DNA of 28,882 bases, taken from contig JARRLM010000001.1 in the NCBI GenBank assembly GCA_037386985.1, positions 2,495 to 31,376 on the forward strand, written 5' to 3'. Below, piece after piece: positions 7,659-26,897 of this stretch. Each line of letters opens with the position of its first letter. Position 1 is the first letter of the stretch. The position numbers and the translations under genes were made by a program. The notes below the pieces were generated by a model. It was given only the letters and a program-made list of their open reading frames with translations. It did no database searches and was not told where the DNA came from. Source of the stretch: Acidobacteriota bacterium (GTDB taxonomy: Bacteria; Acidobacteriota; UBA6911).

Positions 7659-7851
7659 GCAATCTCCTGGTAACGCCTTGGCGGCTAACAGTGAATATAC
7701 AGTTTGTATAAACCAGAAAAACTAAATATCTTATTTCATTTATTGTATCGTTAGGGCGATCCTAACACTTTCGGCCCCTTGGCTGGCAAGCATTTCTCTC
7801 TAGCCCTTCCCGTTGGCTTCCCTTTTTTCAGAGGTCGCTATTCCGGCCATG

Positions 7852-7928
7852 CCCTCAAAATGCCCCTGCTGTGTCCCGAACTGTGTCCGCGAGAAACTGA
7901 CCGTATCCAACTCCAGCCAACTGGAACC
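7852..7928 (+). repeat. 77-bp dispersed repeat copy 1 (integrase arm-type-site-like)
   Basis: 70/77 identical to 24668-24744 and 68/77 to 26740-26816; contains CTGTGYCC twice (12-bp period) and CCAACT twice (10-bp period). Confidence 0.9.
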
Positions 7929-8081
7929 AAAATAGAAGAGAAATTCGGAGAAAGCGAAAATCAGAACTTTTCGCAGCCGTCTTTTCAGCATAGGAAAATC
8001 ACTTGTCCGGTAATGCTGTTCAGGATTTGGGAATTGCCGAAGCTCCAATTAATGATCGGGCAAATTCAGCTTTTGATCGCC

Positions 8082-8123: not shown

Positions 8124-8639
8124 TTCCGTCACGATAAGGCTGACCCGCCTTACTGAGGTCAAAGGGAGAGTGCAACGCTTTACGATTTTCGGCTTGCCTT
8201 TCGCTGTGTGCGACATGGTGACAATAACGCGTTTGGCTCCGGTCACCAGATCCATAGCGCCGCCCATCCCCGGCAACAGCTTACCCGGAACCATCCAGTT
8301 TGCCAACCGGCCCTTTTAATCCACTTGCAGGCCGCCGAGAATGGTCAAGTCAAGATGGCTGCCGCGGATCATGCCGAAGGAAAGGCAGCTGTCAATACTG
8401 GCGGTCCCGGGAATGGCGCCGACGAAACCTCCGCCGGCATCGATGAGCGATGGTTCCTCCATGCCTGCTCCAGGCATCGGCGCCATGCCGATGATGCCGT
8501 TTTCCGATTGGAAATAGACGTCCATGCCGGGCGGCATATACCCGGGAATCAACGTAGGCAGGCCGATACCGAGATTTACCAGGTTCCCGTCCTTTAATTC
8601 GAGTGCCGCCCTCTCCGCAATCAGAGTCTTATCGTCCAT
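8124..8639 (-). pseudogene. 3-oxoacid CoA-transferase beta subunit (AtoA/ScoB-like), nonsense mutation and C-terminal truncation
   Basis: VNLGIGLP, catalytic [16 protein letters not shown] (in-frame TAA 8316-8318), GMGGAMDLV; homology ends at SLIVTE. Confidence 0.88.
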
Positions 8640-9060
8640 TGGTTTCGGCCCTCCCTATGATGTGATGAACGCAGACAAAGGGTGTTGCCACAGAGTCTGG
8701 CGGAATGCCCCCGAGCCCGAAACCGCCGGCGCGGATACGTTCCGCCAAAGTACCCTGCGGGCAAAGCTCCGCGTCCATTTCACTGGCGATTATCTGTCTC
8801 TGGGTTTCGGGGTTCAGCCCGATATGAGAGGCGATGAGCCGGCGAATCATTTTTGGCGCAACTAATTGTCCAATCCCGAAATTCGGCGTGCCGGTATCGC
8901 CGGTATCGTTGGAGATAATCGTGAGGTCCTTCCGGCCCTAGCGAACCATTTCGGCGATTATTCGATACGGTGATCCGACTCCGATGAATCCACCGATCAT
9001 GATCGAGGCTCCATCCGGAATCCTCTCTACCGCCTCGCTGCAACTGATGAATTTGTTCAT
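8629..9060 (-). pseudogene. 3-oxoacid CoA-transferase alpha subunit (AtoD/ScoA-like), nonsense mutation and internal deletion
   Basis: ATG 9058-9060; DGASIMIGGF...[14 protein letters not shown] (TAG 8938-8940); [13 protein letters not shown] runs straight into the terminal IPPDSVATP segment, so about 100 aa appear to be missing. Confidence 0.85.
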
Positions 9061-9075
9061 TTGCCTTGCACCTCG

Positions 9076-10011: not shown

Positions 10012-10083
10012 GGCTGCTCCCCTGATTCAGGCTGTTTGCCGGTTTATCGCTGTAGCTCTCTGACGGATCCTCAAGTTTTTCTA

Positions 10084-10464
10084 TTATTTCGCGCGCTTGG
10101 CGACGAAATCCTCGCTTCCATAGCTGCCGACCGTTCGGGAACCGCGAATCTCATCACCCGAAATTGTGCCCTTATACTCGCACCTGAGCTCCTGGCCCTG
10201 AACTTTCAGCGTTTCGACAAACGATATTTCATCACCTTTCACCGAGCCTTCCGTTAAAGCGGACTCGCTGGATTCGCTTTCCATGGACATCACGGCTGTT
10301 CCGGTGAGTTTCTCTCCCGCAACTTTAAAGTCGAAAGTGTAGTTCATCTCACCAATCGGGGTGTTGATGACGGCGGTCCATTTGCCGGAAATGTCGGCGG
10401 CAAAGGCCGGAACCGTGCAGAGAAGCGCAATAGACACAACCAGCAGAAATCTTAACCGTTTCAT
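10084..10464 (-). CDS. Secreted hypothetical protein (signal peptide, ADISGKW start, predicted beta-rich)
   Basis: MKRLRFLLVVSIALLCTVPAFA signal peptide; RBS AGGAG upstream. Confidence 0.8.
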   Translation of the reverse strand: MKRLRFLLVVSIALLCTVPAFAADISGKWTAVINTPIGEMNYTFDFKVAGEKLTGTAVMSMESESSESALTEGSVKGDEISFVETLKVQGQELRCEYKGTISGDEIRGSRTVGSYGSEDFVAKRAK

Positions 10465-10496
10465 TGTAGGATCTCCTTTTTTGGGTAAGCATTTTT

Positions 10497-10534
10497 AAAC
10501 CGCAATGTGGTATAAACATACCGTAATGCAATAT
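10497..10534. promoter_or_regulatory. Candidate tandem operator in the divergent promoter
   Basis: Two related imperfect palindromes, AAACCGCAATGTGGTAT (10497-10513) and ATACCGTAATGCAATAT (10518-10534), 21 bp apart; an IclR gene ends the operon. Confidence 0.3.
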
Positions 10535-10562
10535 CCATAATCAACCAAGAATGGAGGTCGGG

Positions 10563-10901
10563 ATGAAGAAGGTCACATTGCCGGAGGCGAAGCCCTATGC
10601 GCCGCCCAAACACTTCAATATGACCGCGTTGAGGCTTCAGGGAAAAGATGAGACCGGAACGCGGCAATTCTGGATGGGTCTTTCTCACTTCCTGCCGAAT
10701 GGAGGCGCGGAGATGGACGCGACCTCCATGGAAAAGCTTTATTTTGTGCTTGAGGGAGAGGTCACCGTCACTACTCAGGACAAGCAGACGTGCGTGCTGA
10801 AGGCTTGGGATTCGCTGTACGTCGGACCCAATGAGGCCAGGGCGATCGTCAACCATACCAACAGGCCCGCCAGCATGCTGGTGATCATCACATACCAATA
10901 A
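10563..10901 (+). CDS. Cupin domain protein
   Basis: EKLYFVLEGEV and GPNEARAIVN cupin motifs; GGAGG at 10553-10557 favours ATG 10563 over the track start 10551. Confidence 0.88.
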   Translation: MKKVTLPEAKPYAPPKHFNMTALRLQGKDETGTRQFWMGLSHFLPNGGAEMDATSMEKLYFVLEGEVTVTTQDKQTCVLKAWDSLYVGPNEARAIVNHTNRPASMLVIITYQ

Positions 10902-10933
10902 TCAGGAACGATCCTGCGAAAGGCGGTGAATCA

Positions 10934-11725
10934 ATGGAATCAAGCGTTGACCTGAACTACGTACAAAACATGTTTAGCATCAAAGATAAAGTGGCCGTCG
11001 TGACCGGCGGCGCCGGCGCCCTGGGGAAAGCCGTCGCGCTGGGTTTGGCGGTATATGGCGCCGACGTCGTGGTAACCGGCCGTACGATGAAGACGCTGGA
11101 ACCGGTGGTGAGAGACATTGAGGCGGTCGGCCGGAGAGCCCTGGCTCTGAGTTGCGATGTCGCAGTTGAAGAAGATGTCGCGAACATGGTGCGGGAAACT
11201 CTGAAGGGATTCGGCACTGTGGATATCCTCGTCACGGTCGCCGGAATAGCGAAACGTTTTCCCGCCGAGGAATTTCCCATCGCCGACTGGCAGCAGGTAA
11301 TGGACGTCAACGTTCGGGGAACATTCCTCTGCTGCAAGCATGTGGCGAAAATTTTCAAGGAAAAGAAAAAGGGAAAAATCGTCACTATCTCATCTGTACG
11401 CGCCTTTGCCGGTCATCCGAGCGGGTACGCCGCCTACGGAACCAGCAAAGGCGCGGTGAATCTCCTGACCAAGCAGCTGGCGACCGAATGGGCGAAGTAC
11501 AACATCAACGTCAACTCGATTGCTCCCTGTATTTTCTGGACGCCGCTGACCCAGGAGGTTTTGGAAAACGAGCAGATGTACAAAGTTTTCATGTCCAGGA
11601 TTCCCATGGGCCGAGCGGCGCTGACTCAGGATTCGGTTGGGGCTGCCGTTTATCTCTCTTCTCCCGCCTCGGATTTTGTTACCGGGCAAATCCTTTACGT
11701 GGACGGCGGCACGGTCGCCGGATAA
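10934..11725 (+). CDS. SDR family NAD(P)-dependent oxidoreductase (gluconate 5-dehydrogenase/KduD-like)
   Basis: TGGAGALG, DVNVRG, catalytic YGTSK, VTGQILYVDGG. Confidence 0.93.
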   Translation: MESSVDLNYVQNMFSIKDKVAVVTGGAGALGKAVALGLAVYGADVVVTGRTMKTLEPVVRDIEAVGRRALALSCDVAVEEDVANMVRETLKGFGTVDILVTVAGIAKRFPAEEFPIADWQQVMDVNVRGTFLCCKHVAKIFKEKKKGKIVTISSVRAFAGHPSGYAAYGTSKGAVNLLTKQLATEWAKYNINVNSIAPCIFWTPLTQEVLENEQMYKVFMSRIPMGRAALTQDSVGAAVYLSSPASDFVTGQILYVDGGTVAG

Positions 11726-11747
11726 AGAATAAATTGGAGATTCTGAA

Positions 11748-12551
11748 ATGAGCGACAATATGAAATTAGTGGACCTCAGTCACCCGTTCGGCCCCGGATG
11801 CCCTCTTTGGCCATACTTCGAGGATATCAAAGTCGAGCGAATGCACTATCATGCCAAATCAGGCGTACTTTCGCAGAAGATCACGACCGTGATGCACTGC
11901 ACGACGCATGCCGATTCTCCAGGCCACGTTGTCGAGGGCCTCAGATTTACCCATGAATTGCCGCTGGATCTTTACTATGGAACGGGCGTTGTCGTGGATA
12001 TTCCAAAGAAAAAATGGGAATTGATTACGGCCGAAGATCTGGAGAAGGCAACTCCCAGAATCGGGAAGGGTGACATAGTGATCGTACACACCGGCTGGAA
12101 CAGGTATTGGGGAGATAACAAGCAGTATTTCTGCTACTCTCCCGGTCTTGGACGCGAAGCCGGAGAGTGGTTTGTAGCAAAGGGCGTAAAAGCTGTAGGG
12201 GTGGACCAGCAGGCATTGGATCATCCTCTCCATACTGCGATCGGTCCGCATGGTCCCGGTCCCATCAATCCTTCCCTTTGTGAGGAATATAAACAGCTGA
12301 CGGGTCGCGAGGTCCTGGAGGATTTCCCCGAATGGGAACCCTGTCACAACCTGCTCCTTAGAAACGGAATTATGGGATGGGAGAACGTGGGCGGCGATAT
12401 CGCCATGGTGGTCGGAAAACGGGTCACCATAATGGGGCTTCCGCTGCGATGGTATATGGGAGACGGATCCATCGTCCGGATGGCGGCCCTGATTGATGAG
12501 AAGGACATTAACCCCGTTCCTCCGAGAGTTTATAAATACGGAGTTGTATGA
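11748..12551 (+). CDS. Cyclase family metal-dependent hydrolase (kynurenine formamidase-like)
   Basis: VDLSHP, HCTTHADSPGH (HxGTHxDxPxH-like), GDIVIVHTGW, GWENVGG. Confidence 0.9.
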   Translation: MSDNMKLVDLSHPFGPGCPLWPYFEDIKVERMHYHAKSGVLSQKITTVMHCTTHADSPGHVVEGLRFTHELPLDLYYGTGVVVDIPKKKWELITAEDLEKATPRIGKGDIVIVHTGWNRYWGDNKQYFCYSPGLGREAGEWFVAKGVKAVGVDQQALDHPLHTAIGPHGPGPINPSLCEEYKQLTGREVLEDFPEWEPCHNLLLRNGIMGWENVGGDIAMVVGKRVTIMGLPLRWYMGDGSIVRMAALIDEKDINPVPPRVYKYGVV

Positions 12552-12569
12552 ATCCTGAGGTGTCGGAAC

Positions 12570-13505
12570 ATGGAAAAAATTGCGGTGATCGGCGCCGGTC
12601 TCATGGGGCACGGCATTGCGCAGGTTTTTTCGGTGAAAGGGCATGAGATTGCGATCCACGATCCTTTCCCGAATGCGTTGGCCAGTGTTCCGGAGCGAAT
12701 ACGTGCAAACCTGCGCAGCCTTGGCCTTGACGAATCGTCTGTTGAGAGAATATCCCTGCACAATACACTCAAAGACGCGGTAGAGAATGCCGACATTGTC
12801 TTTGAGGCTGCACCCGAGAATATTGCGATGAAACAGGGGATCTTCGAGCAAATGTCAACGATGACACATGCCGGTTGCATCCTGGCCAGCAATACGTCGG
12901 TCATCCCGATCGGAGAGATCGCCGCCAGGGCCGAGAATCCGGGCCGTGTCCTCGGCACGCACTGGTGGAATCCTCCATACCTGATTCCATTGGTGGAAGT
13001 CATCCAGGCGCCCTGTACCGAATTAGTCTCGATAGAAAGATGTATCGATCTGTTGCAGCGGGTTGGGAAAGTTGCCGTCCATGTCCAACGCGATGTGCCG
13101 GGTTTTGTCGGCAACCGTTTGCAGCACGCGCTCTGGAGAGAAGCAATCTCCATTGTAGCAGCTGGAATCTGCGATGCCGAAACGGTTGATCTCGTAGTCA
13201 AAAACAGTTTCGGAATGCGGTTGCCGGTGTTGGGACCGTTGGAGAATGCGGATCTGGTGGGCCTGGACTTGACTCTCGCGATTCACAATGTAATCCTTCG
13301 ACATCTTGAAGCTTCACCCGAACCCAGTCCCTTGTTGCAACGCTACACGAAAGAACAGCGCCTCGGGATGAAAACGGGCAAAGGCTTCTACAAATGGACA
13401 CCGGGGTCGGCGCAGCATGTCCGCGATCGGATGATTAGGCATTTGAGGAATGCAACACGCGAGGGAGAGTCGTTTAGTAATGGATCGCCTAAAAACAAAA
13501 CCTAA
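12570..13505 (+). CDS. 3-hydroxyacyl-CoA dehydrogenase family protein (could act on a free acid, as gulonate or carnitine dehydrogenases do)
   Basis: VIGAGLMGHG, EAAPEN, LASNTS, GTHWWNPP, GFVGNRLQ, DLVGLD, GMKTGKGFY. Confidence 0.92.
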   Translation: MEKIAVIGAGLMGHGIAQVFSVKGHEIAIHDPFPNALASVPERIRANLRSLGLDESSVERISLHNTLKDAVENADIVFEAAPENIAMKQGIFEQMSTMTHAGCILASNTSVIPIGEIAARAENPGRVLGTHWWNPPYLIPLVEVIQAPCTELVSIERCIDLLQRVGKVAVHVQRDVPGFVGNRLQHALWREAISIVAAGICDAETVDLVVKNSFGMRLPVLGPLENADLVGLDLTLAIHNVILRHLEASPEPSPLLQRYTKEQRLGMKTGKGFYKWTPGSAQHVRDRMIRHLRNATREGESFSNGSPKNKT

Positions 13506-14280
13506 GCCCCGAGACCGAAATGGGGTTCAGGTTATTGCTCGTGCTGCCGAAATCTTGCGGGCACTTGAAGGCAGCGATGGTATGCGCCTTGGCCAGCTTG
13601 CCGAAAGGGTTGGCTTGCCCAAGTCTACAGTGCAGCGGATCATCACTGCTCTTGATTCGGAAAATTTCGTAGTTTCGGCATCTCCCGGCGGGCGCTTGCG
13701 GTTGGGCCCGGCTTTGGTCAGGATTGCCCACTCCATACGCTTCCCGATCGCGGAAACTGCCCGGCCATATCTTCGGAAGCTTTCCGAAAAAACGGGTGAA
13801 ACCGTGGACCTCGCGTTACTGGATGGGGAAAAAGCGGTCTTTGTGGATCAAATCCCGGGATCGCAGCGCCTCCGGACGGTGTCCGCCATCGGGATTTCAT
13901 TTCCACTGCATTGTACGGCTAACGGGAAAGCGATGCTCGCCGTGATGGGCGCCGGGGAATTGAACCGGCTCAAAAAAAGTATTCGCCTGGATGCTTTTAC
14001 CAAGAAATCCATTCGATCCTGGAAAAAGCTTGAAGAGGAACTTCTCAGGATTCGCGAAACTGGGATCGCATACGACCGGGAGGAACACTCGATAGGGATC
14101 TCGGCCGTCGGAGCTGCGATCGTCGGCTTTGAAGGAGAAATTACCGCAATCACGATTCCGACACCAACGGTGAGATTTGCCAAGAAGGAGCCTGAATTAG
14201 TGCAGGCGCTTCAGCTATGCCGAGAGGCAATCAACAGAATCCTAGGCGATCACCGCCGCAAGAGTAGGTCGGCTATTTGA
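13480..14280 (+). CDS. IclR family transcriptional regulator
   Basis: N-terminal HTH (LAERVGLPKSTVQRII), PLHCTANGKA, GISAVGAAI; ATG 13480 follows GAGGGAGAG (track start 13450). Confidence 0.92.
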   Translation: MDRLKTKPKPRDRNGVQVIARAAEILRALEGSDGMRLGQLAERVGLPKSTVQRIITALDSENFVVSASPGGRLRLGPALVRIAHSIRFPIAETARPYLRKLSEKTGETVDLALLDGEKAVFVDQIPGSQRLRTVSAIGISFPLHCTANGKAMLAVMGAGELNRLKKSIRLDAFTKKSIRSWKKLEEELLRIRETGIAYDREEHSIGISAVGAAIVGFEGEITAITIPTPTVRFAKKEPELVQALQLCREAINRILGDHRRKSRSAI

Positions 14281-14611: not shown

Positions 14612-14638
14612 ATAATGGCCCAGAGTCTTGCCGATCAT
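14612..14638 (-). pseudogene. N-terminal fragment of a Ser/Thr protein kinase (MIGKTLGHY), separated from its RBS by the RIT element
   Basis: Minus strand ATG ATC GGC AAG ACT CTG GGC CAT TAT; joining to 19152-19172 through TCATGG gives GGGAGA-5nt-MSMIGKTLGHY. Confidence 0.55.
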
Positions 14639-14640
14639 GG

Positions 14641-14691
14641 TTATGTTCTCAGTTGAATTATGTTCTTAGTTTTTCTTCTTATGCTTCAGTA
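14641..14691 (+). repeat. Left end: terminal inverted repeat plus two sub-terminal copies
   Basis: TTATGTTCTCAGTTG 14641-14655; TTATGTTCTTAGTT from 14658; TTATGCTTCAGT from 14679. Confidence 0.8.
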
Positions 14692-14839
14692 TTTTAATCT
14701 ACTTTCCTGATTTTAAATCATAGATAAATAGTTTTTTCCTTTTTATTATCCCTGCTTTTAGTTCTTCGCCCCCATCTCCTATGCTTCTACAGCTTTTGTC
14801 AATGGTCCATACCAGGTCTGCAATCAGGGGGAGATTTTT

Positions 14840-15268
14840 ATGCCGAAGCGTAGGAAGTGCCCTTTTTGTCGCCGGCTGTTCATCCCGGATCTGCGGGTCA
14901 AGGAGCGACAAAAAACTTGTGGTCGGAGAGAGTGTCGCGGCGAGCAAAAACGCCAATTGGATGCGCGTTGGCGGTTGCAAAATCCAGACTACTTTCGGAA
15001 TTTATATCCACAACAAAAGCAGGCTTACGGTACCCGGGCCGAATACCGAAAACGCTACCGCAAGGATCATCCCGATTATGTCCAGCGTAACGCCGCTTTC
15101 GTCAAGAAATACCGGAGGCGCCGCAACGAGAAAGCGGCAAAAGATGTAAGTTCCACAAGTTGTGATCTGCGTCTAACTGTTTGGAAACAAACGGGTAAGG
15201 TTAAAATTACCCATGTAAGTCACACAAGTCGCGATATTCTTGTAACTCTTTGCGAAAATGCATCTTAG
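14840..15268 (+). CDS. Hypothetical basic protein with N-terminal CxxC-x16-CxxxxC cluster (putative Zn-binding)
   Basis: RBS GGGGGAGA; CPFC...CGRREC; Arg/Lys-rich middle; two repeat units at the C-terminus. Confidence 0.75.
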   Translation: MPKRRKCPFCRRLFIPDLRVKERQKTCGRRECRGEQKRQLDARWRLQNPDYFRNLYPQQKQAYGTRAEYRKRYRKDHPDYVQRNAAFVKKYRRRRNEKAAKDVSSTSCDLRLTVWKQTGKVKITHVSHTSRDILVTLCENAS

Positions 15269-15298
15269 CGGGAAATTACCCATGTAAGTTCCACAAGT
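15144..15298 (+). repeat. Three direct repeats with an exact 69-bp period, core ATGTAAGT(TC/CA)CACAAGT
   Basis: Cores at 15144-15160, 15213-15229 and 15282-15298; copies 2 and 3 share the extra prefix AAATTACCC. Confidence 0.9.
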
Positions 15299-15338
15299 TC
15301 AGATAGCATTCCCGGCCGCCGCCAAATATTCTCGCTGC

Positions 15339-15686
15339 ATGTTGACGAAACGACCACAACCGCCGCGCCCGGATCGCATTCGATCTATCCGCGGATCTTT
15401 CAGTTGGATCGATCACCGATTTTTCCGCCAGGGATTCGACCAGGGATTAACCCGCCTGGAGAAGCTCCTCTACCTTGTGCTTATTGCCGTTTCCAATCGG
15501 GATGGTGTGAGCTTTTATTCGGACGAGCGACTGACGGAACTTCTCGAGATCCGCCACCCCCACGAACTAAGTGGGGCTCGCAATGAGCTGATTGATCGGG
15601 ATCTGATCGCATTCGAACGGGGAATCTATCAAGTTCTGGATCTGCCTCCTCAACCTCAAACACCCGGTTACCGGGAAAATGGATGA
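15339..15686 (+). CDS. Winged-helix-like DNA-binding protein (replication-initiator N-domain-like), coupled to the first recombinase
   Basis: SFSWIDHRFF, EKLLYLVLIAVSNRDGVSFYSDERLTELL, ARNELIDRDLI; its TGA overlaps the ritA ATG (ATGA 15683-15686). Confidence 0.78.
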   Translation: MLTKRPQPPRPDRIRSIRGSFSWIDHRFFRQGFDQGLTRLEKLLYLVLIAVSNRDGVSFYSDERLTELLEIRHPHELSGARNELIDRDLIAFERGIYQVLDLPPQPQTPGYRENG

Positions 15687-16939
15687 AAGGATCCGTTTTG
15701 AATCTTGCCGCCTGGATTGCCGATTACCAAACGTACCTTGAATCCACCGGTTATGCCGGCGCCACGATCCTATCTCGAATGAAGCACCTGAACTGCCTGC
15801 TCGCCTTTATCAATGCGCAGGACCTGAAAAGCTTGGAAGAGTTTCGCCCGGAACTGGCCATCGACTTTACCGATTACTGGGTGCGCCATCAACCTTATGC
15901 CAAGTCCGGTAAGGCTACCCTGAAAAAATCGAGATTCAAACCGCATCATCACAAAGGAATCCAGTATACCCTCCATTGCTTCTTCCGCTGGGCGCACTCC
16001 ACCGGACGTCTTCAACATAATGTTTTTCCCCTAATGCCTCCTGTGCGTGGCAACTACTTTTTCCAGGAGGTGGCCGGCTATATGCATTTCTGCCGACAGC
16101 ATAAGGGCTTGGCCCGAAACTCCCTGATAGAGATTGAACTCTTCGTGCGCCGCTTTGACGGATTCCTGCATTCCCGGCAGGTGAAACATTGGAATGAGAT
16201 GCGAATGCATCACATTGATCTGTTCATCCGGCAGCAGGCAGACAAGAACATTAAGCGTATTCGTCGCATTCAGAATGTGCTGCGCGGTCTGTTCCGGTAT
16301 CTGTTCAGCCTCAATCTGGTGAATCGTGACTGGGCCCTGGCTTTGCATGCTCCCCGCCAATACCACCTCGCTGATGTCCCCCGAACCATTCCCGCGGACC
16401 AGGTGATCCGATTGCTGCAGAGCATCGACCGCAATCGGCGAGGCGGCAAAAGGGATTTTGCCATGATACTGATGGCGGCCGGCCTTGGTGTGCGCGCCAA
16501 TGAGCTGGCCAATCTTTGCCTTGAAGATCTCGATTGGAAAAAAGGCGCAGTCCGTTTCAAACAGTCCAAGAATGGGAAACTGCTCTGGCTGCCGCTTTCG
16601 GGGCCTCTGATTGGAGCTCTGTCGTCTTACCTGCAGAACGAACGCCCCAACGACAGCGCCTCGAGAAACGTTTTTTTGCGGCTGGATGCTCCCTGGGAAC
16701 CGCTGACCCCGGCCGGAGTCGCCGGCGCCATACGGAAAAGAATGCGCGCGGCCCAGATCGCGGGCAGCGGTCATCAGCTGCGGCATAGTTTTGCCGGTGA
16801 ACTGCTGCGAGTTGGAGTCAATTTTTCAACCCTGCAGGAACTGCTGGGACATAGCCATATTACGTCCACTCAGATCTATACCAAAATCGATCTGAAACAG
16901 CTCCGTGAAGTGGCTGAAAGCGATGGTGAAAACTACTGA
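15683..16939 (+). CDS. ritA: Tyrosine recombinase, RIT first subunit
   Basis: RDFAMILMAAGLGVRANE; HQLRHSFA...LLGHSHITSTQIY (R, H-x-x-R, H, Y intact). Confidence 0.92.
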   Translation: MKGSVLNLAAWIADYQTYLESTGYAGATILSRMKHLNCLLAFINAQDLKSLEEFRPELAIDFTDYWVRHQPYAKSGKATLKKSRFKPHHHKGIQYTLHCFFRWAHSTGRLQHNVFPLMPPVRGNYFFQEVAGYMHFCRQHKGLARNSLIEIELFVRRFDGFLHSRQVKHWNEMRMHHIDLFIRQQADKNIKRIRRIQNVLRGLFRYLFSLNLVNRDWALALHAPRQYHLADVPRTIPADQVIRLLQSIDRNRRGGKRDFAMILMAAGLGVRANELANLCLEDLDWKKGAVRFKQSKNGKLLWLPLSGPLIGALSSYLQNERPNDSASRNVFLRLDAPWEPLTPAGVAGAIRKRMRAAQIAGSGHQLRHSFAGELLRVGVNFSTLQELLGHSHITSTQIYTKIDLKQLREVAESDGENY

Positions 16940-17975
16940 GATGAATAAGCTGCCCGAATTGAACTACGAGAGTTTCCTGGCCGCTGCAATGCGGGATTAC
17001 CTGGACTACCTCGACCACCTCGGGTTCAGCACCATGAACCATGCCTACAATCTCAAGAGTATTGATCGCTTTCTAATCGAAAACGACATCCGCCATACCG
17101 ACCAGCTTAATACCCGGCTAATGGTCGAGTTCGCAGACAAACACAAAGGGCGGATTAAAGCCAATACCCTGCGATTGCTGCGGCATACTTTTTATGGATT
17201 CTGCCGTTACATGATTCGTCTTGGCTGGATGGTGGAAAATCCAGTGGCCGGGTTTCCCGTGCTCAAATCCCAGTCTTATCTCCCGCATGTTTTTTCCCCG
17301 CAGGAGCTGAGGCTCTTCTTCGATTCCTTCAAAGCAAAGATACAACAGGAAGAGAATCCAACAGTGCGTTTCCGCGCTCTGTCCTACTACACCCTCTACC
17401 ACCTTCTGTATGCCTGCGGACTGCGTGTTTCTGAAGCCACTGCGCTCACAACATCCGTGTATTGTTCCCGTCAAGCGACTTTGTACATAGAACGTTCGAA
17501 GTTTCGCAAAGACCGTCTCATACCGATCAGTCGAAAAGTATGCTCCAATCTCGATTATCTTCTGACCGTGCGGCAGGGCCTGTTCGGGATTCCGCGCGAA
17601 GGATTCCTGTTTTTATTGGTGCCTCAATGCCGGCCGTACGCTCGAGATTGGCCCGGTCAATACTTTCGCAGAGTTCTCCAGCGCCTCGGGATTTACCATA
17701 ACAAGGAACATCATTGCGGCGTCTGCCATGGAACACCCCATCTGCACGAGCTTCGCAGAGCCTTCGCCGTCCATCGCCTCCTGAGATGGTATCGGGATAA
17801 GGCGGACGTCAACGCCAAGCTCCCTCTGTTGGCCACTTATATGGGGCACAGTTACTTCGGACACACGAAGACATACCTGACCTTGACCCGACAACTGCTT
17901 TCGGAAGCGGGAAGCCGGTTTGCCCAAAGCTTCGACCGCCTGGACTGGATGACGGATGATTCCAAGCTCGGATAA
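16923..17975 (+). CDS. ritB: Tyrosine recombinase, RIT second subunit (start uncertain: 16905, 16923 or 16941)
   Basis: LLYACGLRVSEA; HELRRAFAVHRLLRWY; LPLLATYMGH...TKTYL, typical of the middle RIT gene. Confidence 0.92.
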   Translation: MVKTTEMNKLPELNYESFLAAAMRDYLDYLDHLGFSTMNHAYNLKSIDRFLIENDIRHTDQLNTRLMVEFADKHKGRIKANTLRLLRHTFYGFCRYMIRLGWMVENPVAGFPVLKSQSYLPHVFSPQELRLFFDSFKAKIQQEENPTVRFRALSYYTLYHLLYACGLRVSEATALTTSVYCSRQATLYIERSKFRKDRLIPISRKVCSNLDYLLTVRQGLFGIPREGFLFLLVPQCRPYARDWPGQYFRRVLQRLGIYHNKEHHCGVCHGTPHLHELRRAFAVHRLLRWYRDKADVNAKLPLLATYMGHSYFGHTKTYLTLTRQLLSEAGSRFAQSFDRLDWMTDDSKLG

Positions 17976-18987
17976 ACTCTCGGTTCATCTCCATTACTTT
18001 TTTACGCGCTATCTGCCGCAACACCGGGAGGTCTCGTCCCATACGTTGTCGAGCTATAGGCAAACGTTCATTCACCTCGTTCGCTACTGGAACCGATCCT
18101 TCCCGGATTGTCCCGACCCTACAATAGATCGATTCCATGTTGGATTTTTGCTGGAGTTCCTTTCCTATCTGGAAAAAGAGCTGGGCAACGCGGCAGCGAC
18201 GCGCAACTCCCGCCTGGCTGCCCTGAAGTCCTTTTTTAAAATGGTCAGTCTGATCGAGCCCCGCTATCAAACGCAATGCCGTCAGATCCTGATGATTCCT
18301 GAGAAAAGAGTGCGGCGCTGGCCCTTTGAATACCTGGAGAAAAACGAAGTCGATTCGATTTTCGCCTGCGTCAATGTGCATACTCACGACGGCTACCGCG
18401 ATCTCTGCATTCTCCGCTCGCTGTACAACACCGGAGCGCGCGCTTCCGAGTTATGCGGCATCAACCTGCCCGACCTTGATCTTAAAAACAAACAGGTGTT
18501 GCTTTATGGCAAGGGAAAAAGGATCCGCACCGTTCCCCTGTGGGATTCCACCGCCGCATTCCTGAATAATTACCTGAAATCCGAACGGCGGGTTCCTCTG
18601 GAACCTTACGGCAACTTCCTATTCATCAATCAGCGCGGCGGCTCCCTGACTCGGTCAGGCCTTTATGCGCTTTGCAAAAAATACCTCGTTAAGGCTCGTG
18701 CCAGAGTGCCCACGCTGGCGCGTAAGCGAGTTCACCCGGTGCATGTCTGGCGCCGCACAACAGCTTCTCATCTGCTGCTTGCCGGCGTCGATCTGACTGT
18801 GATTCAGGAATGGCTGGGGCATGTCTCGATCGACACTACCTGTGGATATAAAGGCATCTCGATCGAAACCAAGCGTGAAGTGTTACAGAAGTTTTATTTG
18901 TTTGAGAAAGCCTGGCAGAAAACCAAAACGGAAGGGATTGATTGGAGTTTGCATCCGAATTTACTGTCGTTCCTGGAATCGCTTTAA
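17956..18987 (+). CDS. ritC: Tyrosine recombinase, RIT third subunit
   Basis: ATRNSRLAALKSFF; LYNTGARASE; HVWRRTTASHLL...WLGHVSIDTTCGY; overlaps ritB by 20 bp. Confidence 0.92.
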   Translation: MIPSSDKLSVHLHYFFTRYLPQHREVSSHTLSSYRQTFIHLVRYWNRSFPDCPDPTIDRFHVGFLLEFLSYLEKELGNAAATRNSRLAALKSFFKMVSLIEPRYQTQCRQILMIPEKRVRRWPFEYLEKNEVDSIFACVNVHTHDGYRDLCILRSLYNTGARASELCGINLPDLDLKNKQVLLYGKGKRIRTVPLWDSTAAFLNNYLKSERRVPLEPYGNFLFINQRGGSLTRSGLYALCKKYLVKARARVPTLARKRVHPVHVWRRTTASHLLLAGVDLTVIQEWLGHVSIDTTCGYKGISIETKREVLQKFYLFEKAWQKTKTEGIDWSLHPNLLSFLESL

Positions 18988-19073
18988 ACCATCTTCCAGG
19001 AGCCGGGATCATTGCGTCATCAGCCCGATAATTATGTTCTGTGTTTTTTTACCCGAATCGCTTACTGCTTATT

Positions 19074-19086
19074 TATCAATCACTTA
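19074..19086 (+). promoter_or_regulatory. IHF consensus site inside the RIT right end
   Basis: TATCAATCACTTA matches WATCAANNNNTTR exactly; a one-mismatch counterpart lies at 14714-14726 on the minus strand. Confidence 0.5.
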
Positions 19087-19136
19087 ACAAAAACAACCAA
19101 AATCCTGATAACTCATAGCGAATTAGGGAGATACGG

Positions 19137-19151
19137 CAACTCAGAACATAA
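19137..19151 (-). repeat. Right terminal inverted repeat of the RIT element
   Basis: CAACTCAGAACATAA (reverse complement TTATGTTCTGAGTTG); an oppositely oriented TTATGTTCTG lies at 19032-19041. Confidence 0.8.
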
Positions 19152-19421
19152 TCATGGACATAAGCATCTCCCGGCTAATCTGGCTGTCATGCTTTTTGGT
19201 GATTCGTGGCGGCAATTATCAGGGATGAGGGGAATGGGAAAAGGGAAATTGCGGGTAAGCCGCTGCAGCGAAATCAAGTCACTTTTCCGGAATGGATGTC
19301 AGGATCTAGAAACGAAAATAGCCTAACAGCATGGTCAAGTTCCCAACGTCTTGTTGATCGATCTTATTTTGTTTGTCCTTGAAGATCTATCTTTCTCGTG
19401 AAGTCTTCCCAAACCTGATCG

Positions 19422-22582: not shown

Positions 22583-23493
22583 TTCGATTTTCCTTTTTTC
22601 TCAGGTTTCAGGTATTTGCCGTAAGCTTTGTATTTCTCGATTTTTTTCTGGGTTTCCGGCATTTCAAGTTGCGGTCCTTCTTCGTCACGATGCCTCATGA
22701 TCCAGCCCAGATGGTGGCGTTGTTTTTCAGCAGAGAACCGTGGATTCCGGATATCGTCGGCGTTCCACTCCACCCGGTATGTACCACCTTCACTGGACAC
22801 CTTTCCATGTACCTGGCAGGTTGGGCAGGCTATATCCGGCAGGCCATTTTCGAGATAGAAAATATTACAGTGGCAGACCGGGCAGGAGATGGGAGAGTCA
22901 TCTCCCACATACGCAACTTCTTCGAATGGCAGGCTCATCGCCCTTACCAGGTTTCTACCGAGCTGCCGGCTTCTGTCTATTGCCCGTTCGTTATCGGGAG
23001 TCAGGGCAGCGCCCAGATCGGCACAATGATCTATCTGCACCTGGTCAACAATCGTTGAAAAGTGCTGAATCAACAGGTGAATGGTCGGTAAGCCGAGACT
23101 GGTCCAGCCATCGTACCCTGAACCTCCGACCGATATGGCAGCGGACAACTTCTTTCGTTCATGGACAATCGGGTTGCGCATGAAAAAGTGATTGATCTTC
23201 TCACTTGCGCAGAGCAATGAACCGGGCGCCCTGAGATGGTATACCGGAGCAGCCAATATCAAAGCTGACTCTCCAAGCATGATATTTTCAAAAAGCCAGT
23301 CCGTATCATCAAACGGGCATACCGGTTTGATGAAACATGCCCCGCAACTTTTGCAGGGCAGGATCTTTATATCCATAGCCCGAATAATCTCCGATTCTCC
23401 TCCTTCCTCTTCAGCAGCCATCAAAGCTGCTTTTAAAAAGGCCTCGCAGTTTCCATCTTTTCTCCCAAAAGACAAACCGGTTATTTTGCCCAT
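22579..23493 (-). CDS. Flavodoxin-fold FMN protein (iron-sulfur flavoprotein-like) with an extra C-terminal CxxC...CxxC domain
   Basis: CKSCGACFIKPVC cluster, AAPVY, CPVCH and CPTC; RBS AAGGAG. Confidence 0.85.
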   Translation of the reverse strand: MGKITGLSFGRKDGNCEAFLKAALMAAEEEGGESEIIRAMDIKILPCKSCGACFIKPVCPFDDTDWLFENIMLGESALILAAPVYHLRAPGSLLCASEKINHFFMRNPIVHERKKLSAAISVGGSGYDGWTSLGLPTIHLLIQHFSTIVDQVQIDHCADLGAALTPDNERAIDRSRQLGRNLVRAMSLPFEEVAYVGDDSPISCPVCHCNIFYLENGLPDIACPTCQVHGKVSSEGGTYRVEWNADDIRNPRFSAEKQRHHLGWIMRHRDEEGPQLEMPETQKKIEKYKAYGKYLKPEKKGKSK

Positions 23494-23884
23494 GATTCTC
23501 CTTCTTGTCGGAACAATTGATCATCCGGAATCCTGATGGCAGCCTGAGGATAGGAAAAATTAGCGGCGGTTTTTTGTAGCGCCTATCCAACCAGATAGTC
23601 TTCAGCTTCTGATCAAAGGGATTATGTAAACTCTCTTGAATTTTCGACCGTGATTTAATCCCAGGCCCGCCTTTCCGAGTGCCTATAGTGCGAAATTGCC
23701 TGGGCAATCTCAGGCATGCTTTCCTCCAGATAGAGGTTGCCAGCACGCTACTTGTTTATATTCGGTGAATCCTGAGGCTATTATAGGCCGCTCATGTTGA
23801 TGTCGGAAGGCAAATCATGGGCTTCGTGTAACAACGATTTCTGACTGGACAGGTCACATGGAAGCAAACGCTGTATTTCGGTGT

Positions 23885-24090
23885 TCAGTCAACTACTTCT
23901 CGCTCGAAGATCAGATCGGCATAAGATGAAGCTCCATATCCACGGACAGCAGGCGCAGATGCCTAATCGAATCGCCAGCCATCTATAGCGAGAGTATTGA
24001 TTTGATCCTGGTGGATTCGTTGAAATTACCTGTGAATCCTCCACCCTTCAGTTTTACACGGACATACTTGTATTCGTATCTTTTAGCCAT
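23885..24090 (-). pseudogene. DUF4177-like small protein with a frameshift and a nonsense codon
   Basis: GGAGG RBS; MAKRYEYKYVRVKLKGGGFTG, then a shifted frame gives HQDQINTLAIDGWRFD*ASAPAVRGYGASSYADLIFEREVVD*. Confidence 0.7.
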
Positions 24091-24107
24091 TGTTACCTCC
24101 CATTTAA

Positions 24108-24398
24108 TGCGATTCTCGGATTCACTACAGGCACGAGGAATCGTACGAACCCGATTTTGTCGTTGAGACGAAGACAGAGAAGTTTCTCTGCGAACCCAAA
24201 CGGGCCACGGAAATGACAGATGAGGTTGTGTTAGCCAAAGCCGATGCGGCAGCGATCTGGTGCAAACACGCCACAGCGCATGCAAAAGAAAATGGTGCTA
24301 AGCCATGGAGATACCTGCTAATTCCACACGACCATATACAAGAACAAATGACGCTCGGTGGGTTGGCGGCTCGATACGAAGTGAATGCTGCGAACTGA
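24108..24398 (+). pseudogene. C-terminal fragment of a type III restriction (Res) endonuclease
   Basis: Frame open from 24108 with no start codon: YEPDFVVETKTEKFLCEPK (PD-(D/E)xK-like)...AKADAAAIWCKHA...KPWRYLLIPHD. Confidence 0.75.
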
Positions 24399-24427
24399 GC
24401 CGATGCTATCCGTCTGACCTGTTTTGA

Positions 24428-24488
24428 GCTGTGTCCCGTGCTGTGTCCGCGAGAACCTCGATCAATCTAACTCCAACCAACTCAGTCC
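24428..24488 (+). repeat. Partial, diverged copy of the 77-bp arm repeat (left of the tRNA-Phe core)
   Basis: 46/61 identical to positions 17-77 of copy 1, same orientation. Confidence 0.8.
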
Positions 24489-24526
24489 AACTTCCTGCCC
24501 CACGTCCCTCGCGGCTTGTGCTTATT

Positions 24527-24539
24527 TATCAATGGTTTG
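24527..24539 (+). promoter_or_regulatory. IHF consensus site in the att region
   Basis: TATCAATGGTTTG matches WATCAANNNNTTR; a weaker site CGTCAAGCACTTA lies at 24619-24631. Confidence 0.5.
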
Positions 24540-24557
24540 CGGCAGTACGTTACAGGC

Positions 24558-24602
24558 CTGAAAATCCGTGTGTCGACGGTTCAATTCCGCCCCCCGGCAC
24601 CA
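24558..24602 (+). tRNA. 3' fragment of tRNA-Phe(GAA), att core; not a complete tRNA
   Basis: CTGAAAA anticodon loop, TCCGT, GTGTC, T-arm GACGG-TTCAATT-CCGCC, ends GGCACCA; the 5' anticodon-stem strand, D-arm and acceptor strand are absent. Confidence 0.85.
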
Positions 24603-24667
24603 CTCCCAAAGCCTCTTCCGTCAAGCACTTACGCAGATTCTGCCGCTTCTCAGATAGCCCCGAAATA

Positions 24668-24744
24668 CCCTCAAAATACCCCTGCTGTGCCCAAAACTGT
24701 GCCCGCGAAAAACTCACCGTATCCAACTCCAGCCAACTGGAACC
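24668..24744 (+). repeat. 77-bp dispersed repeat copy 2 (right of the tRNA-Phe core)
   Basis: 70/77 identical to 7852-7928. Confidence 0.9.
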
Positions 24745-25081
24745 AAGATGGAGGGGAAATGGAGGGGAATCAGAAGAGGAACTTTCCGTTGGCACTAAAC
24801 AACATAATCCTGACCAGTGTGCATCCTGGTCTCCACGGGCAAGGAAAGTATCTCTCGGGATATAGCAGTTGACTGATAGAAAATATTTTACGAGGATAGC
24901 AATGAAGTGTGCCGGAACCTAAGAGCAAAGAAAAGATAAACGCTTAGATTCTTCCATCGGTGCATGTCAATTCGATCGGTCAAATTGGATTTTCCTAAAA
25001 ATGAATCTTGAATGAATAAGGCTCGGGAGACATGTAAAGCGATCCTTTGTTTTTGTCATTCAACTTGCCGAGGAAATATCA

Positions 25082-26665
25082 ATGGATCCTTTGTGGATAG
25101 CTGCAGCATTTGTTTTTGGAGCTATTTCCGGCAGAGTGGGATTGCCTCCGCTCGTGGGTTTTTTAATTGCTGGGTTCGTTCTCAAAGATTTCGATATAGA
25201 AGGAGGAGATTTCCTGGCTAGGGTTTCCGATATAGGTGTGACGCTGCTTCTTTTTACCATAGGACTTAAATTGAAATTGAAGAGTCTTGCCAAACCTGAA
25301 GTATGGGCAGGAGGCCCTTTACATATGCTGATCACAATTGTCGTTTTCGGGGGCGGTATCCTTATCCTTGGGATTTGGCAAGTTCCATACTTCAATCATC
25401 TGAGGTTGCAAAACTCTCTCTTGATTGCTTTTGCGTTAAGTTTTTCAAGCACCGTTTTCGCTGTCAAAATGCTTGAACAGAAGAAAGAAACGGCATCCAA
25501 ACATGGAGCGGTTGCCATAGGGATTCTGATTATGCAGGATGTGATTGCGGTCATCTTTCTTGCATTATCATCCGGTAAGATCCCGTCGCCATGGGCTGCA
25601 GCATTAGTTCCGGCACTGCTCATCCTAAAACCACTTGCGGGGAAATTTGTTCGTCAATGCGGTCATGGTGAAATGCTTATTCTGTTCGGTATTCTTATGA
25701 CGCTGGTCGGCTACAGGAGTTTTGAACTGGTTGGATTGAAAGGCGACCTCGGCGCTCTGATATTCGGGATGCTTCTGGCGTCGAATCCAGTGGCACACGA
25801 ACTGTCAGAAAGGTTGCTAGGTTTTAAGGACCTGCTCTTGGTAGGATTTTTCCTCAATATTGGTATGTCGGGATTGCCGACTCCGGCTGGATTTGCGGTT
25901 GCGCTAGGTCTGGCCGTAGTAATGTTACTGAAACCTATAATCTACTTTTTTGTCCTTACAAGGTTCAGACTGCGTGCCAGGACCTCGATGCTGGCATCCT
26001 TCGGCCTTGCCAATTACAGTGAGTTCGGTCTTATTGTCGGGACAATCAGTGTAAGCAAAGGTTGGTTGGGGACGGATTGGTTAATTATTATCGCTATTGC
26101 ACTGTCTTTGACATTTATAATGGCCGCACCTCTCAATGCGGCTGCACACCAAATGTATACCCGGCTTGCATCTAAATTGAAACGGTTTGAAACTACTAAA
26201 CGCCTTTTGGAAGATACACCGATTGATAGCGGAAATGCCCAAATTGTAATCATCGGTATGGGGAGAGTTGGCACAAGCACTTATGATGCAATACAGGAGC
26301 AACATGGAGACGTTGTTATGGGCATCGATTTTTCTCTCGACAACGTGAACGCGCAGCAGGCCCAAGGTAGAAATGTTGTATACGGGGATGCTGAGGACAG
26401 CGACTTTTGGGATCGCGTCGATCCGTCCAGGAGCCGGGTTCATGTTGTAATGCTTGCCCTTCCAGATGTCGAAGCCTCTGTATTTGCTATTCGACAGATG
26501 TACCAGAAAGGATATACAGGGCAAATTGCCGCATCCGTGCGGTACGAGGATGAAATACCCGTATTGCAAAAAGAGGGTGTTCATGCAACCTACAGTTTGT
26601 ATGAAGAAGCGGGTGCCGGATTTGCCGCACATGTACTTGCCAACCTGGATGTTGATATGCTTTGA
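25082..26665 (+). CDS. CPA2 cation:proton antiporter with C-terminal TrkA-N/KTN domain (KefB/KefC-like)
   Basis: GLPPLVGFLIAG, LFTIGLKL, FSSTVFAVK, GILIMQD, IGMGRVG Rossmann motif, YGDAED. Confidence 0.92.
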   Translation: MDPLWIAAAFVFGAISGRVGLPPLVGFLIAGFVLKDFDIEGGDFLARVSDIGVTLLLFTIGLKLKLKSLAKPEVWAGGPLHMLITIVVFGGGILILGIWQVPYFNHLRLQNSLLIAFALSFSSTVFAVKMLEQKKETASKHGAVAIGILIMQDVIAVIFLALSSGKIPSPWAAALVPALLILKPLAGKFVRQCGHGEMLILFGILMTLVGYRSFELVGLKGDLGALIFGMLLASNPVAHELSERLLGFKDLLLVGFFLNIGMSGLPTPAGFAVALGLAVVMLLKPIIYFFVLTRFRLRARTSMLASFGLANYSEFGLIVGTISVSKGWLGTDWLIIIAIALSLTFIMAAPLNAAAHQMYTRLASKLKRFETTKRLLEDTPIDSGNAQIVIIGMGRVGTSTYDAIQEQHGDVVMGIDFSLDNVNAQQAQGRNVVYGDAEDSDFWDRVDPSRSRVHVVMLALPDVEASVFAIRQMYQKGYTGQIAASVRYEDEIPVLQKEGVHATYSLYEEAGAGFAAHVLANLDVDML

Positions 26666-26739
26666 CTTTCTTTCCAGTTTGAGAAAAGATCAACAAGGAT
26701 TTGCGGGCATCTCACCACCTTCCCCGACAACCGTAAACT

Positions 26740-26816
26740 CCCTCAAAATGCCCCTGCTGTGCCCAAAATTGTGTCCGCGAGAATCCAAGCGTATCCAACT
26801 CCAGCCAACTGGAGCC
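26740..26816 (+). repeat. 77-bp dispersed repeat copy 3
   Basis: 68/77 identical to 7852-7928; no tRNA core recognisable upstream. Confidence 0.9.
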
Positions 26817-26897
26817 TGCACAAAGAAGTTTAATGTGTGAAGAGTAAAACAAACAACTATCAGGCAAACCCGGAGTGGTTCAATTGTTGTTGTACTC

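What the first reader, a model, noticed from the sequence alone, without database searches (positions are those of the whole stretch)
24428..24744. attP-like junction embedded in the chromosome (arm, IHF, tRNA-Phe core, IHF, arm)
Seen: the tRNA-Phe 3' fragment starts at the anticodon loop and has arm-repeat copies on both sides, with an IHF consensus on the left and a near-consensus on the right. Known: attL and attR each carry element arms on one side only; arms on both sides are the attP arrangement, which arises between tandemly integrated elements or when a circle is captured elsewhere. Inference: a tandem island array at tRNA-Phe or a captured attP that could still accept or release DNA. 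The T-stem A-C mismatch suggests a hybrid or ageing core.
Basis: partly seen in the sequence, partly recalled or inferred. Interest (0 to 1): 0.68.

Follow-up and report, generated by a model that had tools for sequence, protein, structure and literature searches.

The report
Junction between stacked tRNA-Phe islands
A leftover 3' half of a phenylalanine tRNA gene, flanked on both sides by integrase-arm-type repeats, marks the seam between two integrase-less mobile-element remnants in an uncultured marsh Acidobacteriota genome; this is a known way for gene islands to grow, here built by a widespread repeat family whose own integrase was not found.

Summary
Window 24558-24602 is a 45-nt copy of tRNA-Phe(GAA) positions 32-76, identical to the intact gene on another contig of the same MAG. 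It lies between two copies of one repeat (24428-24482 and 24639-24768). An exact IHF consensus sits 18 nt to its left.

The right-hand repeat ("R", about 130 nt, CTGTGYCC twice at a 12-bp period) has about 18 copies in this genome. It recurs across Acidobacteriota MAGs and over 120 metagenome contigs, directly after intact tRNA-Phe, tRNA-Leu(TAA) and tRNA-Leu(CAA) genes or their 3' fragments. The whole left arm-core-right arm module is conserved at 77% in another species, with unrelated DNA on both sides.

Sister elements in the genus carry the same paired-repeat layout next to a tyrosine integrase gene, so reading the repeats as arm sites is well founded. No integrase lies next to any CTGTG-type copy examined.

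The T-stem A-C mismatch is native to the intact tRNA, not decay.

Best reading: an attR/attL seam, equivalent to an attP, in an eroded tandem array of integrase-less units. This is the CIME or tycheposon-island kind. This scan has already reported similar integrase-less arrays at other tRNAs in other genomes. Present activity is untested.

The parts
24108..24398 (+). Truncated C-terminal remnant (96 codons, no start) of a restriction/helicase-like gene. It is the last coding remnant of the unit to the left. The stretch 23500-24108 has only short broken frames.
   Evidence: stop-to-stop ORFs. The family assignment is from my reading of the translation and was not tested with Pfam.
24428..24482 (+). 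Left arm (L, P-arm type): CTGTGTCC at 24429-24436 and 24441-24448 (12-bp period), then GCGAGAACC and CCAAC repeats. Read as the right end of the unit to the left.
   Evidence: Homologous L arms precede tRNA-Phe cores in G042 and in three other MAG loci (L068, L073, L080) and in 10 metagenome contigs.
24527..24539 (+). Exact IHF consensus TATCAATGGTTTG, 18 nt before the core.
   Evidence: Kept at the same position in 3 of 5 species and one mismatch away in the other 2. Binding was not tested.
24558..24602 (+). Core: tRNA-Phe(GAA) 3' fragment, positions 32-76, starting at the anticodon loop and ending in CCA.
   Evidence: Identical over 45/45 nt to C617:2514-2558.
24619..24631 (+). IHF-like near-consensus CGTCAAGCACTTA in the conserved spacer between core and right arm.
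   Evidence: GTCAAGCAYTTAC recurs in most core-R copies. It has two mismatches to the consensus, so the assignment is weak.
24639..24768 (+). Right arm module (R, P'-arm type): AAATACCC twice, CTGTGCCC at 24685-24692 and 24697-24704, GCGAAAAACTC, CCAACT twice. Read as the left end of the unit to the right.
   Evidence: It is 89% identical to the copy on C175 and 74-86% identical to copies in other genomes.
25082..26665 (+). Cargo of the right-hand unit: a Na+/H+ exchanger with a TrkA-N domain.
26712..26841 (+). Next R copy, with no tRNA core before it (truncated on its left within the spacer). This is the next seam of the mosaic.
7828..7953 (+). Upstream R copy without a core. It is the nearest possible left boundary of the unit that ends at the L arm.

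Best explanation
The site is a seam inside an eroded tandem array of integrative-element remnants that target the anticodon-loop-to-3'-end segment of tRNA-Phe. The left arm is the right end (attR side) of one unit. The tRNA fragment plus the right arm is the left end (attL side) of the next unit. Together they re-create the full arm-core-arm layout of an attP.

The inferred mechanism is as follows. A tyrosine integrase of the tRNA-adjacent family common in this genus binds the paired 8-nt arm repeats with its N-terminal domain. It binds the anticodon stem-loop as the core site, helped by a bend at the IHF-like site, and crosses over in the anticodon loop. Each integration regenerates the tRNA gene and pushes older units, with their displaced 45-nt fragments, further from it.

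The CTGTGYCC-type units have lost their integrase everywhere they were examined. They are now eroded by deletions (many R copies lack a core) and mixed with units of other arm types. Any movement today would need an integrase supplied in trans.

What is shown: the sequences, their conservation, the arrays, and the link between this layout and integrase genes in sister elements. What is inferred: binding, the crossover point and the order of events.
For: 1. The fragment equals positions 32-76 of the intact tRNA-Phe.

2. The core-spacer-R unit directly follows intact tRNA-Phe genes and their fragments in arrays in G016, G018, G007, G042 and G015 and in other Acidobacteriota MAGs.

3. The whole L-core-R module is 77% identical in G042:C8, a 534-kb contig of another species, with unrelated DNA on both sides. 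L-spacer-core aligns end to end in 5 species. At least 16 L-plus-core modules occur among 120 metagenome contigs, three of them showing the same 255-nt arm spacing as here.

4. tRNA-adjacent integrase loci of the genus have exact 8-11-nt direct-repeat pairs at an 11-12-bp period, 31-73 nt after the tRNA and before the integrase gene. Matching pairs sit before the displaced fragment at the far end (C175, G012).

5. Downstream of tRNA-Phe there is no shared gene order in the genus. Several genomes carry a different arm pair there, so the site is a hotspot used by several arm-specificity types.

6. The module is more conserved (77-89%) than neighbouring coding genes between the same genomes (70-74%).

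7. An independent metagenome contig (X2) spans 24090-24587, from the gene remnant through the L arm into the core.
Against: No integrase lies next to any CTGTG-type arm. This covers this MAG, about 35 related genomes and the 39 metagenome R copies that have at least 1.5 kb of cargo side.

Neither unit at the seam has both att sites. R at 7828 and R at 26712 both lack cores.

In G016 and G018 no CTGTG-type L arm precedes the fragments.

Every core seen, including the last one in each array, is followed by R. So a true chromosomal far flank was never identified.

Linkage of this contig to the intact tRNA-Phe contig is unknown.

No excision or circle junction could be looked for, because only assembled contigs of the runs were available.
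Confidence: 0.65

Rival explanations
1. A working cassette system mobilised in trans. L-core-R is the functional recombination site of integrase-less gene cassettes that a chromosomal or helper-element integrase inserts at tRNA-Phe/Leu and excises again. This would be an integron-like capture platform rather than debris.
For: The units are small (1-17 kb), often hold a single gene, and never carry an integrase. R is conserved above the level of coding genes across species and is abundant in metagenomes. The cores come from three tRNAs whose anticodon loops differ only at position 34, CTNAAAA. The complete module is conserved as a unit in several species.
Against: No conserved partner integrase was found. 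G016 has R arrays but only four PF00589 hits, none with CTGTG arms. Arrays mix arm types within one unit: in G018, R is CTGTG-type but L is GCCTCCC-type. Many R copies lack cores and are truncated on the left at varying points. No cargo unit was found shared at high identity between genomes.
Confidence: 0.18
2. Spread driven by homology. The core-spacer-R module of about 215 nt acts as a portable homology patch. Circles or transformed DNA carrying it integrate, and arrays rearrange, by RecA-type recombination rather than by a site-specific integrase.
For: Every core is followed by R. In G018 the two core-R copies that flank one unit look nearly identical by eye in the printed alignment (percent identity not computed). 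In G016 and G018 the fragments have no matching L arm. In some relatives, blocks on either side of the seams occur in permuted order.
Against: It does not explain the distinct, conserved L-arm subfamily with its IHF-like site at a fixed distance before the core. It does not explain the sharp left edge of the fragment at the anticodon loop, or the integrase-linked layout in sister elements.
Confidence: 0.1
3. The repeat is not a recombination site at all. It could be a regulatory or RNA element, or a REP/MITE-type repeat, or the junction could be an assembly chimera through repeats.
For: R is always on the same strand as the tRNA and directly downstream of it, so it could be co-transcribed. The MAG is fragmented (632 contigs) and contigs break at these repeats.
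Against: There is no Rfam match, no consensus RNA structure in 31 copies and no promoter-like or terminator-like site. There are no inverted terminal repeats. The same module lies on a 534-kb contig of another MAG, and an independent metagenome contig covers L arm to core.
Confidence: 0.05

Closest known systems
Tandem accretion of integrative elements and CIMEs (cis-mobilizable elements; ICESt1-related islands of Streptococcus thermophilus; reviewed in PMC5704250)
   Same: Serial site-specific integration at the 3' end of a target gene. Older units lose their integrase but keep att sites. Internal junctions carry the right end of one unit and the left end of the next.
   Different: Here neither unit at the seam keeps both att sites, so the strict CIME definition is not met. 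No helper ICE or IME was found. The units are much smaller and occur in Acidobacteriota. The same arm family is used with three different tRNA cores.
Tycheposon-built genomic islands of Prochlorococcus (bioRxiv 10.1101/2020.12.28.424599)
   Same: tRNA-anchored islands grow by repeated integration at the same tRNA, which pushes older elements inward and leaves partial tRNAs and degenerate elements scattered through the island.
   Different: Tycheposons carry their own tyrosine recombinase and often replication genes. No such hallmark genes accompany the CTGTG-type units. The lineage and habitat also differ.
Lambda-type attP with arm-type sites and IHF bends, and tRNA-gene integrases that cross over in the anticodon loop (from my own knowledge of lambda Int and of K. 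P. Williams' 2002 survey of tRNA integration sublocations; not checked here)
   Same: Direct-repeat arm sites on both sides of a core, an IHF-consensus site between arm and core, and an identity block that runs from the anticodon loop to the 3' end of the tRNA.
   Different: The site is chromosomal and composite rather than on a circular element. No protein binding was tested. The arm pairs have an 11-12-bp period in a single pair per side rather than the P1/P2/P'1-3 layout.
Tandem ssrA-specific genomic islands of Dehalococcoides (PMC3146451)
   Same: Several islands stacked at one small-RNA gene, each bounded by a direct repeat of its 3' end.
   Different: I recall those islands using serine recombinases carried by the islands themselves (from memory; I saw only the abstract), and a tmRNA gene rather than a tRNA gene.
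Integron cassette arrays
   Same: Integrase-less cargo units, often single genes, all in one orientation and separated by a conserved recombination-site-like repeat.
   Different: There is no IntI-type integrase, no attI and no attC-type imperfect inverted repeat. The separators are direct-repeat arm modules, with or without a tRNA core.

Membership tests
tRNA-gene integrative element att junction (regenerated tRNA plus displaced 3' fragment) | A displaced fragment identical to the 3' part of an intact tRNA gene of the same genome | tested here: met
   45/45 nt identical to C617:2514-2558; the intact gene was called by ARAGORN.
tRNA-gene integrative element att junction (regenerated tRNA plus displaced 3' fragment) | The fragment lies in the same array as, and in direct orientation to, the intact tRNA gene | tested here: inconclusive
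   The intact gene is on a 3-kb contig (C617) and the window is on C1, so linkage is unknown. In relatives the same core-R units do lie in direct arrays behind the intact gene.
tRNA-gene integrative element att junction (regenerated tRNA plus displaced 3' fragment) | A tyrosine (or serine) integrase gene within the bounded element | tested here: not met
   The only recombinases between the seams are a RIT-type trio at 15683-18987, which is a separate polymorphic insertion. No integrase lies beside any CTGTG-type arm.
Lambda-type attP architecture | Arm-type direct repeats on both sides of the core | tested here: met
   CTGTGYCC pairs at 24429-24448 and 24685-24704. The same layout sits next to integrase genes in sister elements.
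Lambda-type attP architecture | Bending-protein (IHF) sites between arms and core | tested here: inconclusive
   An exact consensus on the left is conserved across species, but the right site has 2 mismatches. Whether this phylum's IHF/HU binds these sites is unknown.
Lambda-type attP architecture | Integrase binds the arms and the core, and recombines the site with attB | not testable with these tools
   This needs EMSA or a recombination assay, and no cognate integrase has been identified.
CIME (cis-mobilizable element) | No integration or transfer genes | tested here: met
CIME (cis-mobilizable element) | Both attL and attR retained (definition in PMC5704250) | tested here: not met
   The left unit ends in L-core, but the nearest R on its left (7828-7953) has no core. 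The right unit starts with core-R, but it ends at an R copy (26712-26841) with no L arm or core.
Integron | An IntI integrase with attI, and cassettes ending in attC imperfect inverted repeats | tested here: not met
   There are no inverted-repeat arms in the module, no foldable consensus and no integrase at the array heads in G016, G018 or G042.
MITE/REP-type dispersed repeat | Terminal inverted repeats, or a palindromic unit | tested here: not met
   The left ends of copies are truncated at varying points, while the right ends coincide.
Structured non-coding RNA | A covariance-model match or a conserved secondary structure | tested here: not met
   There is no relevant Rfam match at E<=1. 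RNAalifold on 31 copies gives no structure, energy 0.0.

The most novel reading that the evidence does not exclude
The CTGTGYCC-arm modules are the recombination sites of a phylum-wide family of integrase-less gene cassettes. A helper or chromosomal tRNA-site integrase would insert and excise them in trans at tRNA-Phe, tRNA-Leu(TAA) and tRNA-Leu(CAA), whose anticodon loops differ only at position 34. This would amount to an integron-like gene-capture platform built from lambda-type attP sites in Acidobacteriota.
Probability: 0.17. Interest if true: 0.7.

Novelty: new member of a known kind. Interest (0 to 1): 0.38.

Why it matters
The finding explains the mosaic structure of this contig: the seams are marked by one arm family. 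It also shows that tRNA-Phe is a hypervariable insertion hotspot across a genus of uncultured marsh and sediment Acidobacteriota, used by at least five arm-specificity types.

The CTGTGYCC family is common in wetland, peat and sediment metagenomes and was never found with its own integrase. If it is still moved in trans, it would be a major and so far undescribed route of gene exchange in a phylum with few studied mobile elements. If it is not, it is a well-preserved record of serial integration and decay.

This scan has already reported comparable integrase-less att arrays at other tRNAs in Acidobacteriota, SAR11 and Flavobacteriaceae. This case therefore adds a member to that pattern rather than founding it.

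Tried and rejected
- Structured RNA or tRNA-trailer element: no Rfam match and no consensus fold in 31 copies.
- Promoter or terminator in the module: none found.
- Integron attC or MITE: no inverted repeats.
- R as the native chromosomal flank of tRNA-Phe: rejected. R follows several cores per array and also follows two tRNA-Leu genes, and no shared downstream gene order exists in the genus.
- Hybrid or ageing core: rejected, because the mismatch is in the intact gene.
- The C617 integrase as the cognate enzyme: unlikely. Its own arms are GCGTCCCA and its family is absent from several genomes that have R arrays.
- Search for an integrase beside CTGTG-type arms: nothing adjacent in related genomes, none in viral contigs (no match at all), and only unrelated or remote fragments in 120 metagenome contigs.
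- Shared recurring genes near R copies: none.
- Recent transfer of the cargo: no high-identity copies of the Na+/H+ exchanger unit in the genus.
- Excision junctions: only assembler contigs were available. The one apparent deletion joint (24451 to 24720) is cross-mapping of the paralogous copy on C233. Depth differences near the seam begin at a 243-nt repeat (23877-24119) and could not be resolved.

Full report
**What is there.**
The window is G000:C1:2495-31376 of a fragmented MAG (632 contigs, 72% complete). Close relatives are labelled Acidobacteriota. The sequence recurs in marsh and marine-sediment metagenomes.

ARAGORN and Rfam find no whole tRNA in the window. Window 24558-24602 is nevertheless identical over 45/45 nt to positions 32-76 of the only intact tRNA-Phe(GAA) in the assembly, at C617:2483-2558. 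The fragment starts exactly at the anticodon loop and ends in CCA. It is also in the genus-wide core. It is therefore native and not a sign of decay.

Two direct-repeat copies flank the fragment, at 24428-24482 and 24684-24738 (73% identical over 55 nt). Each carries CTGTGYCC twice at a 12-bp period. The left copy matches a profile of the right-arm family at E=3.6e-7 across the whole genome.

WATCAANNNNTTR matches exactly at 24527-24539. That is one of only two matches in the window, with 1.2 expected over the full 28.9 kb. A two-mismatch version lies at 24619-24631.

**The repeat is a family.**
The right copy belongs to a module of about 130 nt ("R", window 24639-24768). R has about 18 copies in this genome. 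They cluster on a few contigs and point the same way within each contig. In the window, further copies lie at 7828-7953 and 26712-26841.

Just outside the window (C1:26-82), a tRNA-Leu(TAA) 3' fragment, also starting at the anticodon loop, is followed by R. On C40 a second arm-core-arm module has a tRNA-Leu(TAA) core. Two more tRNA-Phe fragments lie on C175 and C40.

**Related genomes.**
In the genus, the core-spacer-R unit follows the intact tRNA-Phe directly and recurs after displaced fragments:
- G016: tRNA, R, one 893-aa kinase gene, fragment, R.
- G018: tRNA, R, 4.4 kb, fragment, R.
- G007: five cores within 10 kb.
- G042: tRNA, R, cargo, L, core, R, cargo, R.

G042:C8 is a 534-kb contig of another species. 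It holds the whole L-core-R module at 77% identity to window 24441-24754, and the DNA on both sides is unrelated.

L-spacer-core aligns end to end in five species. The IHF-type site is exact in three of them and one mismatch away in the other two.

A pattern for the arm pair hits 27 loci in one-genome-per-species contigs. Of these, 26 are labelled Acidobacteriota. The pattern has no hit in viral contigs and more than 120 hits in metagenome contigs.

Among the R and L copies on the 120 metagenome contigs:
- R follows a Phe core 48 times.
- R follows a Leu-like core 8 times.
- R has no recognisable core 20 times.
- An L-type arm precedes a Phe core 10 times.
- An L-type arm precedes a Leu-like core 6 times.

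R also follows intact tRNA-Leu(CAA) genes.

The module is more conserved between species (77-89%) than neighbouring coding genes are (70-74%).

**Why the arms are read as integrase sites.**
The integrase next to tRNA-Phe on C617 belongs to a family that, in the genus, mostly sits beside a tRNA gene (Phe, Arg, Val or Met; 15 of 18 loci). In about half of the tRNA-downstream regions examined, there is an exact pair of 8-11-nt direct repeats at an 11-12-bp period, 31-73 nt after the tRNA. Five of these pairs lie in loci of that integrase family, between the tRNA and the integrase match. A tRNA-Ser integrase locus in G016 has the same layout. Examples are GCGTCCCA, TGGTGGGTAA and GTGATACCA.

Matching pairs sit before the displaced fragment at the other end of such elements (C175, G012). 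Downstream of tRNA-Phe there is no shared gene order across the genus, and several genomes carry their own arm pair there. The CTGTGYCC pair starts 83 nt after the core, which fits this layout.

**What is missing.**
No tyrosine recombinase lies next to any CTGTG-type arm in any of the following:
- this MAG;
- five related genomes scanned with PF00589;
- the 27 MAG loci;
- five further genomes checked by coordinates;
- the 39 metagenome R copies with at least 1.5 kb of cargo side.

The three recombinase genes at 15683-18987 form a RIT-type trio. It is a separate insertion that is absent from part of the natural population (joint 14633 to 19151).

Many R copies lack a core and are truncated on the left at varying points, while their right ends coincide. 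Arrays also mix arm types within one unit. In G018, for example, the unit has R of the CTGTG type but L of the GCCTCCC type. Neither unit at the window's seam has both att sites.

**Interpretation.**
The best reading (about 0.65) is a seam in an eroded tandem array. It joins the right end of one integrase-less unit to the left end of the next.

This is the known process of serial site-specific integration followed by decay. The CIME and accretion model describes it (PMC5704250). So does the account of tRNA-anchored islands in Prochlorococcus (bioRxiv 10.1101/2020.12.28.424599).

Three lesser possibilities remain:
- a cassette system that is still moved in trans (about 0.18);
- spread by homologous recombination through the 215-nt core-R patch (about 0.10);
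- a non-recombinational repeat or an assembly artefact (about 0.05).

The artefact reading is weakened by the same module on a 534-kb contig of another MAG, and by an independent metagenome contig that covers 24090-24587.

**Limits.**
Only assembled contigs of the public runs were available, so circle junctions and empty sites could not be sought. Depth is lower to the right of the seam than to the left in three of four samples. The drop begins at a 243-nt repeat upstream of the L arm and remains unexplained.

Protein binding and the crossover point are inferences. This scan has reported similar integrase-less att arrays at other tRNAs in other genomes. I did not re-test those reports.

Noticed in passing
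window 14633-19151: The RIT-type element (three tyrosine recombinase genes at 15683-18987 plus two small ORFs) is polymorphic in nature. A precise empty-site joint, 14633 to 19151, is the only form in metagenome X1, where depth over the element is 0. It coexists with the occupied form in X2 and X4.
   Followed up: partly
window 8124-14280: The catabolic block (BKACE, SDR, cyclase, 3-hydroxyacyl-CoA dehydrogenase, IclR) is a discrete unit with the same sharp ends. It is 79-84% identical in at least 10 genomes of the genus, with differing flanks. In G043 and G006 the FMN-reductase gene (window 22595-23484) lies directly before it, so the window's order is a circular permutation of theirs. In G022 the block follows an L-type arm with no core.
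   Followed up: partly
window 8082-8114, 14612-14638, 19159-19172 (minus strand); L024:9766-12447: Per an earlier scan note (not re-translated here), remnants of a Ser/Thr kinase gene bracket the catabolic block. An intact 893-aa kinase with PD40 repeats occupies the same position, directly after R, in the tRNA-Phe array of G016. The kinase body may therefore have been replaced here.
   Followed up: partly
window 23877-24119 and 23548-23656: Two short dispersed repeats lie in the gene-poor stretch left of the L arm. A 243-nt segment is 96% identical to C208:1513-1756. A segment of about 108 nt is 76% identical to C405, C308 and C179. Metagenome depth changes at the first one.
   Followed up: no
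G000:C40:24528-24827 (contig outside the window): A second arm-core-arm module has a tRNA-Leu(TAA) core. A RelE/ParE-type toxin gene precedes it. The same toxin gene plus L arm recurs in G022:C123.
   Followed up: partly
L005:26-82 (G000:C1, just left of the window): A 57-nt tRNA-Leu(TAA) 3' fragment, starting at the anticodon loop, is followed by an R copy at the very start of the contig. One contig therefore carries seams derived from two different tRNA genes.
   Followed up: partly
window 7770-7830; L050, L054 and L056 downstream of tRNA-Phe: A hairpin-forming motif (CTTCGCC...GGCTGGCAAGCC) recurs right after tRNA-Phe in some genomes, between the core and R in others, and before the R copy at 7828. 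It may be a REP-like element or a tRNA terminator.
   Followed up: no
G000:C617:2483-2558: The intact tRNA-Phe of this MAG reads GAGATACGGA where relatives read GAGCAACGGA. ARAGORN marks one D-stem pair of the C617 gene as non-standard. The 5' half may therefore be slightly diverged, or this may not be the only tRNA-Phe copy.
   Followed up: no
window 8708: Relatives have about 230 extra bases between the pieces that match window 8124-8713 and 8703 onward. This suggests a deletion in this genome inside a minus-strand gene at the start of the catabolic block.
   Followed up: no
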